From: Mobula hypostoma
Lineage: Eukaryota
DNA: 64,000 bases
Assembly: GCF_963921235.1 (NCBI RefSeq)
Contig: NC_086108.1
Span: 51,648,001-51,712,000 of the forward strand
Direction: 5' to 3'
Shown here piece by piece: positions 3,474 to 9,745 of this stretch; position 1 is the first letter of the stretch; each line of letters opens with the position of its first letter. The notes beneath the pieces are model-generated. The model did not search any database. It was given only the letters and a program-made list of their open reading frames with translations, and had not been told where the DNA came from. The translations under genes and the position numbers were made by a program.

Positions 3474-4025
3474 CAGTGGTCCCCAACCACCGGGCCGTGG
3501 ACCGGTATCGGGCCACAGAGCATGTGCTACCGGGCCGCAAGGAAACGACATGATTTGGTGATATGAGTCAGCTGCACCTTTCCTCATTCCCTGTCACGCC
3601 CTGTTGAACTTGAACGCACGCGAGGTCATTACCCACGCATCATCCATGTCAGCGCGGGAAGGAGATCAACTCCTCCAGCTTCCAAATGACGGCGGGCTGA
3701 AAAGTATGTTTGACATAACATCTCTGCCGGCATTCTGGATCAAAGTCAAGGCTGAATATCCTGAGATAGCCACGAAAGCACTGAAAACGTTTCTTCCATT
3801 TCCAACATATCTCTGCAATGAATGCAACGAAAATTAAATTGCGGAATAGAGTGGACATAAGGAACCCCCTTCGAGTATCGCTGTCTCCCATCACCCCTCG
3901 CTAGGACCATGTTGTTGCAGAGAAACAAGCCCAGGGCTTCCACTGATTCAGCGATATTGGTGTGTTGCAATGAATATTGTCAATATTAAACCGGTCTGCA
4001 ATGCAAAAAAGGTTGGGGACCCCTG
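3474..4025 (+). mobile_element. Non-autonomous hAT (Charlie/Buster-type) DNA transposon
   Basis: TIRs cagtggtccccaacc / ggttggggacccctg; perfect 8-bp TSD gtatagga (3466-3473, 4026-4033). Interior encodes a hAT C-terminal dimerisation remnant (FWIKVKAEYPEIATKALKTFLPFPTYLC...KLRNR...LRVSLS). Confidence 0.92.
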
Positions 4026-4538
4026 GTATAGGATCCAGCGGAGGGTATTCATAATTTATGATATATGATTCATTATTAGCTCAGTGGTAGGAAGAAGAGG
4101 GTGACGGTTGAGGGATGTTTCGCAGTATAGAAACTGGGTATGCCATTGGTCTGGTACTGAGATATGTGTTTATATAAACTACAAACAACAATTTGGATGT
4201 ACGTAGAAGGCATGGTTAGTTTGTTTGCAGATGACACTAAAATAGGAAGTGTAGAAAGTTATGAAAAATTACAGGGGGATCTTGGTCAGCTTGGTATGCA
4301 GGGTGAGGGTTGACAAATTGCTTCCATCCAGATAAATATGATATATTACATTTTGGGATATCAAACCAGGATAAGACATTCAGGAAATGATTAGGTCCTG
4401 GTGGATGTTATGGAACCCAGAGACTATGAGTGCAAGTACTGAAAGTTTGCTGAAAGCAGTGTCAGAGAAAGATAGGATGGTGAAGAAAGCATGCGGCATA
4501 CTGGTCTTTATCTGCCAGGGCATTGAATATTGGAGTTG

Positions 4539-4611
4539 GCTGTGTACATACATCTATTGATGCTTCTGGACACATCTTCAGTGATGTTCCTGGAATCATC
4601 AGGTGTTTTGG
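4539..4611. repeat. 73-bp terminal direct repeat of the HERO-like element, copy 1
   Basis: gctgtgtacatac...ggtgttttgg; 69/73 identical to 8144-8216 by manual alignment. Confidence 0.9.
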
Positions 4612-7600
4612 GTCTTTCAACATCATACAACCTCCTCCAGGTGACCCAGCCGGGGCTGATCAGACCCCAGCTTGTGTCCAGATGGCTAGCTACTTATGAC
4701 TCCATGGCTCCCCTCTTTTGAGCCACAGCCATCTTGAGGCCCTCTCTGTCACATCGGTGGTACTGCGGATGGCTCTCCTCTTCCTCTCTCCCTCGATGCC
4801 CAAAATGCTGAAGGCTCTAACTAAAGAACGGGCTATGAATCCCCTACAACCAACCTCCACTGGGAGACACCTCGCTCTCCATCCAGCCTGCTGACCAGTC
4901 CTGCGTACTTGGAGAGCTTCCTTTCAAAGGCCTCCTCCAAGCTATCTTCCCATGGGACTGTCAGCTCCAGCAGCACCACTTGCTTAGTAGACTCAGACAT
5001 TAGGACAATGTCTGGTCGCAGGGTGGTGGCTGCGATATGGTTGGGGAACTTCAGCTGCCCTTGGAGGTCCACCAACAGCTGCCAGTCCCTTGCAGAGGTC
5101 AGAATGCCTGCAGATGTTCTTTTGGCAGGTATTGGCTGCTCCCCAGCTCTGACAAAGGCAATGGTCTGCTTGGAGGGTCGGGACTGCTTCGCCCACTCAA
5201 CTCCTGCGCTGACAGCTTCAGCGATGGTCTTCAGGACCTGATTATGCCTCCACCTGTACCGTCCCTCACCAAGTGCCCTTGCGCAGCTGCTGAGGATGTG
5301 CTCCAGGGTTCCTCGCTTGGAGCACAGTGGGCACGCAGATGACTCTGCCTTGCCCCATGTGTGCAGGTTTGATGGGCTTGGAAGCACATCGTACACTGCC
5401 TGAACGAGAAATTGGATGCGGTGTGGTTCGGCTTTCCAAAGATCAGCCCAGGTCACTTTCCTCTCAACCACATTCTCCCATCTTGTCCAAGCTCCCTGTT
5501 GCTTCATTCCCACTGCCTTGCACGCTCTCATCTCCTCCACTACTGCTCTCACCTCCTCCTGAACTAGACGACGCCTTTCCTTCCCTCTGGTGTCCATTTG
5601 GGGGAGTTGGAAAGGATCCTAGCCCAGCTCGGCCTCGTGTGACCACTCCCACCAGCCTCCTGTGACGCAGCCTCGCCTCTGCCTCCTGACAGCTTCCTCT
5701 GCCCTCCACTTCCTGCCAGTACTTACTTGGATCCCTGCTCTAGCCACCTTCGGGTCACTTGAGTCCCTATACTGTAGCACTTCTCTGGCTCTTGTTACCT
5801 TGAATTCTTCCTCCAAGGATTTGAAGGGCAGTTGCAGTTTGTTGTGGTGTCCATAGAGTGCGATGCTGCTCAGGCTCTTTGGCAGCCCCAGCCATCTCCT
5901 GAGATGGTTGCTAACCCTCCTCTCTAAGGTTTCGACTGTCGGGATCAGAACTGCATAGACAAGGAGGGGCCACGGGATTCTGGGAAGAATGCTATCCCGG
6001 TACACCCAGGCTTTAAACTTCCCAGGTAGGCCAGACTTGTCCACAGATTTCAGCCAGCCATCCAACTCGGTGCAGGTTGCCTGAATGGATGTTGAGTTCC
6101 TTAAAGAGCTGTCAAAAGCTTTGCCTAAGCTCTTGACTGGCTTTTCTGTGATGGTTGGGATGGCTGTGCCTGCGATGCTGAACCAGAACTTGTTCTCCAC
6201 CTTCCCTTTCCTCAGCACCATCGATCTTGATTTGGCAGGTTTGAAATGCATCCGGGTCCACTCCACCAGCTTTACGAGCCCTTGCAGAATCCTCCGGCAG
6301 CCTGGGACTGATTCTGTGGTAACTGTGAGGTCATCCATGAATGCCCTGATAGGTGGTTGCCGTTGAGCGGAATTCATTCTGGGCCCTCTGGACTCTGGTT
6401 CAGCAGACTTAGTGAGCATGTTCATGGCTAGGGAGAACAGTGTCACTGAGATAGTGCACCCTGTGATGATGCCGATCTCCACCTTGTGCCAGGTTGATGT
6501 AATTGCTCCTGAAGAGACCCTCATCCTGAAGTTGCTGTAATAATCAACGATAAGGTCTCTGATTCTGCTGGGGCTGTGGTATTTGGTCAGTGTGAGCTGC
6601 ACCAGCTTGTGCGGAATGGAGCCATATGCATTTGCCAGGTCGAGCCACAACACTGACAGGTTGCCCTTGTTCTCTCAGGCCTCCCTGATGAGCTGTGTCA
6701 CCACACCGATGTGCTCCAGACAGCCCGGCATCCCTGAAATGCCACTCTTCTGGACTGATGTATCAATATAGGTGTTCTTTGCTAGGTAGGTGCACAACCG
6801 GTTGGAAACTGCACTGAAGAAGATCTTCACCTCGACACACAGCAGGGAGATGATGTGAAACTGATCTATCTGGGTGGCATTTTCCTCCTTCGGGATCCAC
6901 ACCCCTTCAGTCACTCTCCACTGTTCTGGGATCTTCCCCCTTCTCCAGAAGATTCTCAGGATCTTCCACGGACGCAACAGGAGTTTGGGGCAGTTCTTGT
7001 ACACTTTGTACAAGGTGTTGCTCGGTCCTGGAGCCGAGCTTGCCCTTGCTTTGCGGACGACCTCTCTGAATTCCTTTAGTTGCAGCTCTGACATGTCGAA
7101 CTGCACATCCGGTTCAGGTGGGTCTATTAGGATGTCGCACTCTCCCAACTCCTGCTCTCTTTCAGGATCATTATATATCTTCTTCAGATTTGGTCTATGT
7201 CTTCCTGCGAACAGGCCAGTTTCCCACTGCGCTTCTCCCCCAGCAACTCCTTGGTGAACTTGAAGGTGTTGGCGATAAAGGCAGCATGTTTTCGGGCCCT
7301 TTCACGATGCAGCCTCCGATGCCACTCTGCCCGGCGGAGGACCCTGATCTTCTTTCGTAGTATGCACATCAGCTGGGCCAAGCCAATGCGCTCCTCTTCT
7401 CCTGCCTCCTTGTATTGGGACTTAAGCGCTTTCATCTCCTGCCTGATGTTGTGGATCCTCAATGTTCTTTGGTTCTTCGAGTAAGATGTTTTGGAGCCTT
7501 CCTTCTCCTCTTCTCCGAACCGTTCAGCTGCGATACTAACAATAATTGTTGTCATGGCTTGCAGCTTCCTATCAGCCCCTCCCTTAGCCATTGCCTCCAG

Positions 7601-8143
7601 AATTTGGTTAACATCGTCATCAAACTGCTTCCACAGTGAAGTCATGTTAGCTGCAGGCCATTTGATCTGCCTCCTGTTAGACTTCATGTTCGAGGGATTA
7701 GTTTGCAATACTTGGAGGTTCCGGGCACCATGGGGTGACTCTGGGCCTGGCACCTCCTTCGTCTCGCCAGGTTGGACACCTGCGCGTTGTGCTGCTCCTG
7801 CTCCCGCCAAACACTTCATCCTTGCTTGGTGGATCTTCAAGCCGTGATCGTTCTTGCAGATTTTGCCACATGCACACTGCTTCCTCATCGTCGTTTGTTC
7901 ATTGCCTGGGTCTGATGTCGTTGTGTCCATCCGACTGGGGTGCTCATCCTCCCCACCTCTCGGGCACCCCTGGGGGTATCTTTTTCTTAGATTCTTTGTG
8001 GCTTTTGTGGGGGTCCTCCTCTAAGAGGACACAGATTGGGTTGCCAGCCCGTTCTGCCCTGGTTGCTGTCTCTCCGGGCTGTCACTGACTCTCCAGACGT
8101 CACCACTCTTTTCCTGGTTGTCACTGATGAACTCAGGGTGTAA

Positions 8144-8216
8144 GCTGTGTACATACACCTATTGATGCTTCTGGACACATCTTCAGTGATGTTCCTGGAA
8201 TCATTGGGTGTTTCGG
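8144..8216. repeat. 73-bp terminal direct repeat of the HERO-like element, copy 2
   Basis: Direct repeat of 4539-4611. Confidence 0.9.
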
Positions 8217-8779
8217 AAGTTTTGTTGCAGATGTTAGTAAGGCTGCACTTGAAATATTGTGTATTGCTTTGGTCACCCTGTTGTAAGAAATAAGTAATTA
8301 AACTAGAAATAGTGCATAAAATAGTTACCAGGGTGTTTTCTAGATTTGGAGTCTTGAGTTACAAGTTGAAGTTGCAGAGACTACGACTCCATCCCTGGAA
8401 GGTAGCAGATTGAGAGATGACTTGGTAGGGATAGATAAGACCATGAGGGGTGTAGATAGGGTGAAAGTGCATAGTCTTTTTCCATGGAGGGGGTGCTAAA
8501 ACCAAGGAGGCATAGGTTTAAGACTGGAGGTGAAAAAGTTAAAAGGGATATCAGGGGCAGCCTCTTCATGCAAAGTGTCACACACATTTCAAATGAACTG
8601 CCAGAAATAGGGGTTGAAGTGGGCACATTGGCAACATTTCAAATCCATCTAAATAAGTACATGGATGGGAGGGGTTTAAAGGGCTATGGGTCAAACATGG
8701 ACAGAGGGGACTCGCTTGCTAGGCAACAGAGTCAGCATGGACAAGTTGGGTCATTTCGATACTGTGTAGCATTATGACT

Positions 8780-9745
8780 CTTTGTTTAAGAAGTGTATGG
8801 GGAATAATCGGATAAGTTGTTGGCCAGAGAGCTGAGCAGTAGGGAAGATATTGGAGGATGTTCCCAGGAATAAGATATACTCACATTTGCTTGTTGAGAG
8901 TAGTCACATGGCTTTGTCACATCTTACAAGTTTTTTGAGGATCTGTCAAAGTTGACTGATGAAGGTAGGGCCGTGGAGGATGTCTACATGGACCTTGGTA
9001 AATATAGGTCTCTCATGGTGGGCTAATGTTGAAGATGATAATACACGTGAAGGCTACCATCCACAGTGATGGTAGACTGGATTCAAATTTGTTTGGTCAT
9101 AGAAGAAAGAAGGTAGTGGCGGAGGGGTGTTCCTCTGACTGGAAGCTGTGAGCAGGGATCAGCCTTGGGACCTCTGTGTTTGTACATATAAATGTAGATG
9201 GGCTGATTAGTAACTTTGCAGATGACATGAACATTGAAGAGTGAAGAAGGCTGACAAAGGTTATGGATCAGAAAGAGATACAGGCAGAGAAATAGCAGAT
9301 GGAACTTAATCCAAACAAGTATAAGGAGCTTTGCTTTAAGAGGTCAAATGTAAGGTGAGTAAGTACAATACATGATAGAACTCTTGGGAACATTTAGGTG
9401 CAAGCCCAGAGCTCCATAAAGTGTCAACACAAGTCGAAAGGGGAGTAAAGGTGGTGTATGACATGCTTGTTTTAATCAGTTGGGACAGTAAATATAACAG
9501 TCATGATACAGATATATAAAATTCTGGTTAGGCCACATTTAGAGTGTTGTATGCATTTATGGTCAAAGCATTACAGGAAAGATGTGAAAGCTTTAGAGTG
9601 TGCCAAAGAGGTTCAGCAGGATGTTGCCTGGATTAAAGAGCAGTAACTATAAGAAAAAGTTGGACATACTTGGGTCATGTTCTCTGAAGCACCAGGAGTT
9701 GGGGGAAGACCTGACAGAAATTTATAAAATTAGGAGAAGCACAGA
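8780..9745 (+). mobile_element. CR1 LINE fragment
   Basis: Decayed RT (VYMD, FADD, LVRPHLECCMHLW, KRFSRMLPGL). Confidence 0.75.

What the first reader, a model, noticed from the sequence alone, without database searches (positions are those of the whole stretch)
4539..8216. HERO-like RLE retrotransposon bounded by 73-bp direct repeats, with no TSD or poly-A
Seen: the last 73 nt of the 3' UTR are duplicated at the 5' end (69/73 identical), and the host CR1 reads through cleanly (ggagttg|ggaagtt) without a duplication. Known: non-LTR elements normally lack terminal repeats. Inference: the template RNA began inside the 3' UTR of an upstream copy (tandem array, or a circular or multimeric RNA processed at a fixed site), giving a pseudo-LTR-like layout.
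Basis: partly seen in the sequence, partly recalled or inferred. Interest (0 to 1): 0.7.

Follow-up and report, generated by a model that had tools for sequence, protein, structure and literature searches.

The report
HERO retrotransposon with rearranged hammerhead ribozyme
A jumping gene carries a copy of its own tail at its front end, as many of its relatives do, and that tail appears to fold into a self-cutting RNA of an unusual shape, which suggests that these elements are copied from a ring-like RNA.

Summary
The repeat is real (69/73 identical) and the element is a decayed HERO-clade LINE inside a CR1, with a target duplication of 0-1 nt. It is not a one-off: of 26 HERO 5'-UTR starts found in 86 fetched loci plus the window, 24 are preceded by HERO 3'-end sequence. 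It has the rare S-G-C block order, but the catalytic strand is split between A9 and G10.1 by a four-way junction. A descriptor finds the core in 34 of 52 HERO 3' regions, against 0/52 reverse strands and 2/1040 shuffles; 36 of 39 pairs show compensatory change. The predicted cut lies 14 nt before the repeat's start. Likeliest working: ribozyme-cut unit RNA with paired or ligated ends, and reverse transcription starting internally and running past its start. Cleavage and circles are untested. Ten literature searches found no HERO-hammerhead link.

The parts
4539..8216 (-). HERO-clade RLE non-LTR retrotransposon, decayed copy (8215-8216 shared with host)
8144..8216 (-). 5' copy of the 3' end (partial R): blocks G and C of the ribozyme with GAAA (8214-8211) and CUGAAGA (8186-8180) intact, no cleavage block
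8124..8136 (-). 4-bp hairpin that opens the 5' UTR; conserved with compensatory changes; 7 nt past the point where insertions end
8021..8143 (-). 5' UTR with short repeated units; other copies leave the window's sequence at 8124, probably one more unit
   Evidence: (table 7)
4690..8020 (-). single ORF (N-terminal region, RT, CCHC knuckle, PD..E-type nuclease motif), broken near 7189, 6675, 5600-5690 and 4890; stop at 4692-4690
   Evidence: (table 4)
4567..4680 (-). predicted hammerhead: P1-5' 4680-4673, P2 hairpin 4672-4648, stem II-5' 4647-4643, P4-5' 4641-4636, stem III-5' 4632-4628, UA 4627-4626, stem I-5' 4625-4619, stem II-3' 4614-4610, GAAA position 4609-4606 (G12 changed to A here), stem III-3' 4605-4601, P4-3' 4594-4589, stem I-3' 4588-4582, CUGAAGA 4581-4575, P1-3' 4574-4567
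4625..4626 (-). predicted self-cleavage site (after GUA); 87 nt from the element's 3' end
   Evidence: structural analogy with hammerheads; not tested
4539..4611 (-). 3' copy of the repeat; includes the TGTAT motif (4552-4548) and the fixed 3' end at 4539/4540
   Evidence: (table 7)
4203..4538 (+). host CR1-like LINE fragment, left of the insertion (left limit approximate; CR1 label from recalled motif)
8217..8790 (+). host CR1-like LINE fragment, continues in frame right of the insertion (right limit approximate)

Best explanation
HERO LINEs are built as a continuous unit, 5'UTR-ORF-3'UTR-ribozyme-R, joined back to 5'UTR. Shown by sequence: the R|5'UTR junction is clade-wide, insertions end at it, and the 3' UTR conserves a hammerhead core in S-G-C order with a four-way junction between A9 and G10.1. 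Inferred: (1) a transcript from a longer-than-unit copy is cut by two successive ribozymes into a unit-length RNA that begins with R; (2) its two ends are the two halves of the ribozyme and re-pair through P1, stem II, P4 and stem III, giving a nicked or ligated circle; (3) target-primed reverse transcription starts internally at R|5'UTR, between the TGTAT motif and the 5'-UTR hairpin, crosses the cut site, goes round the unit and then re-enters R; (4) it usually stalls at or inside R (5' repeats of 0-87 nt, as here) and sometimes runs on (kilobase repeats, tandems).
For: Descriptor: core in 34/52, full fold in 28/52 loci with at least 450 nt after the nuclease match; 0/52 on reverse strands, 2/1040 (core) and 0/1040 (full) in shuffles, 0/59 in upstream coding DNA. 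All 40 listed hits read GUH and 37 of 39 with a stem II have G10.1-C11.1, neither demanded by the search. On a sequence-only alignment of 29 rows 88.5% of cells pair (shuffles 60.5%, slid partners 38-43%) and 36/39 pairs change on both sides. Zero-linker four-way junction in 26 of 34 fitted loci (5 more not fitted). Covariance model: 62 hits, all on the element's sense strand; 46 of the 52 eligible rows, 20 of the 26 not in training. Junction: 24/26 5'-UTR starts follow HERO 3'-end sequence, 21/26 with exact CUGANGA within 130 nt. TGTAT-like motif 28-31 nt before the 5'-UTR motif in 13/21 junctions, window 31; hairpin in 18/21. Fixed 3' end with mixed flanks: 83+64 contigs (X1), 54+62 (X5). 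L030(+) is an independent flanked copy with a partial R of about 54 nt; L079 has a 1,680-bp 5' repeat with unique flanks. Precedent for internal initiation: Penelope-like PAc (PMC11167929, passages).
Against: No cleavage, ligation, circular RNA or RNA end was observed; all runs laid were contigs. The split between A9 and G10.1 breaks an assumption that PMC10085705 makes from all known hammerheads, so the fold may be slow or inactive. Alignment rows were chosen with a descriptor that demanded stems I and III and the core, and the structure was read from one row, which inflates. Core intact in only 15/26 model hits outside the training set, and broken in the window's own 3' copy. L043, L044, L061, L084 have no descriptor or model hit after the ORF; L044 has the junction without one. 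L020 and L030(-) start within about 8 and 20 nt of the 5'-UTR hairpin, as a linear RNA starting there would. L018 joins two families 68% alike head to tail, which one circle cannot give. Most loci are short-read contigs that may stitch several copies through R. Single-strand folding recovers P1 and P2 in the three loci folded but not the pseudoknotted core. In PAc, hammerhead cleavage was not needed for insertion in vitro.
Confidence: 0.55

Rival explanations
1. Template jumping: the RNA is linear, starts at the 5' UTR and ends at R; after copying one RNA the RT jumps to the 3' end of the same or another HERO RNA and stops at a random point. The hammerhead then has another job (decay, translation control, or holding the 3' end).
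For: L020 and L030(-) begin at about the 5'-UTR start. L018 is a head-to-tail pair of two families. Template jumping by R2 RT is recalled, not from a call. Precise RNA ends would also give a constant junction spacing.
Against: Nothing seen defines those two RNA ends: no poly-A, and the predicted cut is 87 nt inside the 3' end. Five of the six doubly checked or flanked starts (L020, L030 twice, L084, window) lie between the cut and the junction, a window of 87 nt in a 3.6-kb unit. The window's two repeats look identical at insertion. L018 may be an assembly chimera (a 27-nt exact shared run).
Confidence: 0.25
2. Penelope-style partial tandems without circles: read-through RNA from tandem master copies is cut at the upstream ribozyme only, and RT starts at the downstream R of an uncut 3' end.
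For: Explains 5' repeats bounded by the cut (L010's contig starts 1 nt after the predicted cut) and needs no crossing of a nick. Tandem or longer-than-unit copies exist (L079, L033, L003, L014). PLEs are described so (PMC11167929, passages).
Against: Needs one ribozyme to cut and the next to stay silent; copies with repeats longer than R need a further source; the layout would decay unless tandems are remade.
Confidence: 0.15
3. One-off event: a 73-bp truncated copy landed by chance at the 5' end of another copy, or the repeat is a long target duplication (R9-like).
For: Short truncated copies are very common (depth about 20-fold higher at the 3' end in X1).
Against: The repeat is element sequence (89% in L001; shared by many contigs with different flanks), the host CR1 reads through without it, and the same junction with the same spacing recurs in distant families.
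Confidence: 0.03

Closest known systems
HERO clade of RLE non-LTR retrotransposons (HEROTn Q7T1J8, HEROFr Q76IN2; the names HEROTn and HEROFr for these accessions are recalled)
   Same: One ORF with RT, zinc knuckle and RLE-type motif; RT piece 69% and 64% identical; grouped with both at SH-aLRT 99 in a quick tree; not site-specific here, in line with PMC4640811 (passages).
   Different: No terminal repeat, tandem junction or ribozyme is mentioned for HERO in any passage or search listing seen. The original description (Kojima and Fujiwara 2004), Repbase entries and Fell et al. 2025 were not seen.
Type-SGC hammerhead ribozymes (Eckert et al. 2023, PMC10085705; sections 13, 14, 15, first part of 18, and searches of one supplement file read)
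   Same: Block order S-G-C, short linker from stem I to stem II, an extra helix tying stems I and II (P4 here), all core nucleotides.
   Different: Stem II's partner does not follow CUGANGA (44.8% paired, same as shuffles) but lies upstream of block S; two helices (P1, P2) sit between A9 and G10.1. Found in genomic retrotransposons; the paper's text and held supplement name no fish, HERO or retrotransposon host.
Penelope-like elements with pseudo-LTRs and type I hammerheads (PMC11167929 passages; PMC4209133 search listing)
   Same: Partial-tandem layout, hammerhead in the repeat, fixed insertion end inside the RNA, structure downstream of the start point.
   Different: PLEs have a GIY-YIG nuclease and a separate RT lineage; their hammerhead is type I and cuts near the ORF start; here the nuclease is RLE-type and the ribozyme follows the ORF.
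Non-LTR retrozymes (PMC7229834; bioRxiv 10.64898/2026.07.22.740005; passages)
   Same: Tandem units with a hammerhead, proposed to move through circular RNA.
   Different: 170-400 nt, non-coding, type I hammerhead, tied to PLEs; HERO units are 3.6-4.4 kb and autonomous.
R2 with its 5' HDV-like ribozyme (PMC7650587, PMC13580325; passages)
   Same: RLE LINE whose RNA is processed by self-cleavage.
   Different: R2's ribozyme is at the 5' end and frees it from an rRNA co-transcript; no terminal repeat.

Membership tests
HERO clade | RT/RLE phylogeny groups with named HERO elements | tested here: met
   (quick tree of the knuckle-nuclease region, 73 rows, no outgroup from other RLE clades; SH-aLRT 99 with Q7T1J8 and Q76IN2)
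HERO clade | single ORF with RT, CCHC knuckle and C-terminal restriction-like nuclease | tested here: met
   nuclease by PD..E motif in the alignment only, no Pfam hit; ORF broken in this copy
Canonical non-LTR retrotransposon | fixed 3' end, variable 5' truncation | tested here: met
   tables 2 and 7
Canonical non-LTR retrotransposon | no terminal repeat; full-length copy begins at the 5' UTR | tested here: not met
   24 of 26 5'-UTR starts follow HERO 3'-end sequence; L020 and L030(-) are the exceptions
Hammerhead ribozyme | CUGANGA, GAAA, NUH next to stems I-III, with G10.1-C11.1 and A15.1-U16.1 | tested here: met
   clade level; not met in the window's own 3' copy (G12 changed, one stem III mismatch)
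Hammerhead ribozyme | site-specific self-cleavage after NUH | not testable with these tools
   needs an in vitro assay
Hammerhead types I, II, III (Rfam) | nested three-way junction, circularly permuted order | tested here: not met
   no hammerhead family hit at E up to 5 in 4300-8500 (a decayed copy); stems cross
Type-SGC hammerhead | order S-G-C with stem I-II helix | tested here: met
   (P4 90.5% paired, 6/6 pairs compensatory)
Type-SGC hammerhead | uninterrupted block C: stem II strand directly after CUGANGA | tested here: not met
   44.8% paired, 287/500 shuffles as high; classic stem II of 0-2 bp in 36 of 40 hits
Penelope-like element | GIY-YIG nuclease, PLE-type RT | tested here: not met
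   no GIY-YIG Pfam hit; nearest proteins are HERO
Retrozyme-like circular RNA cycle | unit-length circular RNA in cells | not testable with these tools
   only contigs were laid; X11 is a guessed RNA run
LTR retrotransposon | full LTRs of fixed length, integrase, 4-6 bp TSD | tested here: not met

The most novel reading that the evidence does not exclude
HERO elements are autonomous R2-group LINEs that replicate through a ribozyme-closed circular RNA of about 3.6-4.4 kb with internal priming, and their ribozyme is an active hammerhead of a seventh topology in which the catalytic CUGANGA strand and stem II are joined only through a four-way junction.
Probability: 0.4. Interest if true: 0.93.

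Novelty: new variant of a known kind. Interest (0 to 1): 0.85.

Why it matters
It would add a hammerhead architecture that the six-permutation scheme of Eckert et al. excludes, with dozens of natural, covarying examples ready to assay. It would also show that one clade of R2-like LINEs does not follow the R2/L1 rule of a linear RNA primed at its 3' end, but works like Penelope elements and retrozymes, by convergence. That bears on how terminal repeats arise, on how HERO consensus ends should be annotated, and on template design for RLE retrotransposons used as gene-insertion tools.

Tried and rejected
Own genome not held, so copies could not be counted directly. Rfam scan of 4300-8500: three weak unrelated hits, no ribozyme. 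Viral contigs: no HERO relatives by protein or by motif pattern. Classic SGC stem II rejected. Long target duplication rejected. Fixed 5' start rejected. Laying four runs gave no listed joint or loose end at 8143/8144 or 8216 from other copies; 87 joints and 2,460 loose ends were not shown, so this is no evidence either way. The careful tree did not finish; the quick tree is used. Dropped before alignment A2: four near-duplicates (L019, L022, L035, L065), two cut by contig ends (L002, L045), and L023, L036, L039, L055, L073, L078 (12 of 40 descriptor hits left out). L084's partial R could not be checked against its own 3' end, which is missing. L073 and L078 are descriptor hits without a model hit. 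Earlier findings of this scan: nothing by sequence or place, nothing by one word search, seven loose matches by another. Literature: searches; the two that paired HERO with hammerhead returned 0 papers; the library lacks most subscription papers, Repbase and patents. Supplementary alignment files of PMC10085705 beyond the one file held were not seen and could list further hosts for SGC variants.

Full report
Observation. The stretch 4539-8216 holds a minus-strand retroelement bounded by a direct repeat, 4539-4611 and 8144-8216, 69 of 73 identical, E 6e-27, with no second copy in the window. The host frame reads through only when three of the four G letters at the two borders go to the host, so the repeat is 71-73 nt, the 5' border has a 2-nt microhomology and a target duplication is at most 1 nt. 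Contigs of run X1 hold both host junctions with no difference and those of X5, under another organism label, with four substitutions each, so the insertion is real and probably older than that split.

Identity. The ORF is broken in several places. Its RT piece is 87% identical to a Limanda limanda protein, 69% to Q7T1J8 and 64% to Q76IN2 (that these are HEROTn and HEROFr is recalled). The C-terminal piece is 93% identical to a Mobula hypostoma protein, so the host is probably a ray (inference). A quick tree puts it with both named elements at SH-aLRT 99. The family is abundant, strongly 5'-truncated, and ends at 4539/4540 with mixed flanks in 147 contigs of X1 and 116 of X5.

The repeat is a clade trait. 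I fetched the best 80 of 186 related stretches from metagenome contigs (79 loci) and 7 from genome contigs. A profile of the 5'-UTR start found 26 distinct starts (17 were in its training set); 21 have an exact CUGANGA within 130 nt upstream, three more (L034, L040, L044) follow their own 3' end, and two (L020, L030 minus) begin within about 8 and 20 nt of it. Where a family shows both a junction and a free end, they fall at the same place (window, L003, L010, L034/L035, L053/L059, L079; read by eye). A TGTAT-like motif lies 28-31 nt before the first 5'-UTR motif in 13 of 21 junctions, 31 in the window, and a 4-5 bp hairpin with compensatory variants opens the 5' UTR in 18 of 21. The N-terminus of database protein P0065 matches the translated ribozyme region, one more record with the 3' end upstream of the ORF. 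Caveat: most loci are short-read contigs and may be stitched through R, so these counts show that the junction exists in many families, not how often.

The outer start varies. Starts with a unique flank: about 0-8 nt of R (L020), up to about 20 (L030 minus), about 50 (L084, unconfirmed), about 54 (L030 plus), 71-73 (window) and 1,680 nt (L079, 99.9% identical, unique DNA on both sides; unit 4,365 bp). L033 has about 1.8 kb with a left flank only. Contigs L003 and L014 start 22 and 26 nt upstream of the predicted cut, L010 1 nt after it.

The ribozyme. The end of the 3' UTR reads, 5' to 3': P1, hairpin P2, stem II, P4, stem III plus UH, stem I, a short linker, stem II partner, GAAA, stem III partner, P4 partner, stem I partner, CUGANGA, P1 partner. 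A descriptor found the core in 34 and the full fold in 28 of 52 regions with at least 450 nt after the nuclease match, against 0 of 52 reverse strands, 2 and 0 of 1,040 shuffles and 0 of 59 upstream coding stretches; all 40 hits listed read GUH and 37 of 39 pair G10.1 with C11.1, which the search did not ask for. On a sequence-only alignment of the window and 28 of the 40 hits, 88.5% of cells pair against 60.5% in shuffles and 38-43% with slid partners; 36 of 39 pairs change on both sides; every helix is 80-98% paired. Rows were selected for the core and stems I and III, so the less biased evidence is stem II (93%), P4 (91%), P1 and P2 (81-82%). A covariance model without the pseudoknotted stems gave 62 hits in 388 kb, all sense, in 46 of the 52 regions and 20 of the 26 outside training; among 26 full hits outside training the core is intact in 15, and four show the same CpG-type loss of G12 as the window's 3' copy. 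A second subfamily in the laid runs keeps CUGANGA with a different N7. L043, L044, L061 and L084 have no hit after the ORF.

Relation to known hammerheads. The order matches type SGC of Eckert et al. 2023, including the short stem I to stem II linker and the helix that ties stems I and II (PMC10085705). That paper assumes that CUGANGA and its stem II strand are never separated by more than 1-2 nt. Here the bases after CUGANGA do not pair with block G; they form P1, and P1, P2 and stem II meet with no linker in 26 of 34 fitted loci. The fold therefore works like an SGC hammerhead on paper but fails that membership test. Rfam gave no ribozyme hit on this decayed copy.

Mechanism. Shown: conserved fold, fixed inner junction, variable outer start. 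Inferred: the predicted cut at 4626/4625 lies 87 nt inside the 3' end and 14 nt before the repeat's start. Two cuts in a longer-than-unit transcript give a unit RNA whose ends are the two halves of the ribozyme, held by four helices and possibly ligated. RT starting at the inner junction, as the Penelope-like PAc starts internally (PMC11167929), copies R, crosses the cut, rounds the unit and re-enters R; stalling there gives repeats of 0-87 nt, five of the six flanked cases, and running on gives L079. I give this 0.55, template jumping between linear RNAs 0.25 (L020, L030 minus and the two-family tandem L018 favour it), partial tandems cut at one end 0.15, a one-off 0.03. That the motif is an active hammerhead I put near 0.85; no RNA evidence was obtained.

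Novelty. Ten searches showed no link of HERO to a hammerhead or to terminal repeats; passages read in PMC9004415, PMC4640811, PMC7650587, PMC13580325, PMC7229834, PMC13725137 and bioRxiv 10.64898/2026.07.22.740005 mention none. Kojima and Fujiwara 2004, Repbase and Fell et al. 2025 were not seen, so prior mention of the repeat cannot be excluded. Verdict: known element clade and known ribozyme class, joined in an apparently unreported layout with an apparently new topology, cheap to test.

Noticed in passing
window:3474-4025: 15-bp terminal inverted repeats (93%) around a decayed ORF (3562-3837) that looks like a hAT transposase C-terminus (recalled), inserted in the same CR1 region.
   Followed up: no
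window:4539-8216: 86% nucleotide identity over 3.5 kb to L001 and 83-91% protein identity to a flatfish element, high for a probable ray against a bony fish; possible horizontal transfer, not tested.
   Followed up: partly
L026:1850-1950, L041, L046, L052, L063, L068, L074 (after the ORF): A tRNA-like stretch sits between the stop codon and the ribozyme in one subclade (seen by eye); no tRNA scan run.
   Followed up: no
L018:85-7330: Head-to-tail pair of two HERO families 68% alike; real template jump or assembly chimera.
   Followed up: partly
L030:2990-3460: Two HERO copies of different families lie head to head about 400 bp apart.
   Followed up: partly
L008:1282-1340: Copy that ends 7 nt after the predicted cut, inside stem I.
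   Followed up: no
L080-L084: HERO fragments inside contigs of bacterial assemblies, probably eukaryotic contamination.
   Followed up: no
window:8021-8136 and matching 5' UTRs in the loci: Conserved array of short hairpin-like units with GAAAGA/GAGAGA motifs at the start of the 5' UTR across the clade; possible protein-binding or translation signal; the window's own stretch does not fold better than shuffles.
   Followed up: partly
window:4863-4895 to 7457-7550: Contig joints that skip most of the ORF in X1, X5 and X11 may mark internally deleted, non-autonomous HERO derivatives (tables 5 and 5c).
   Followed up: no
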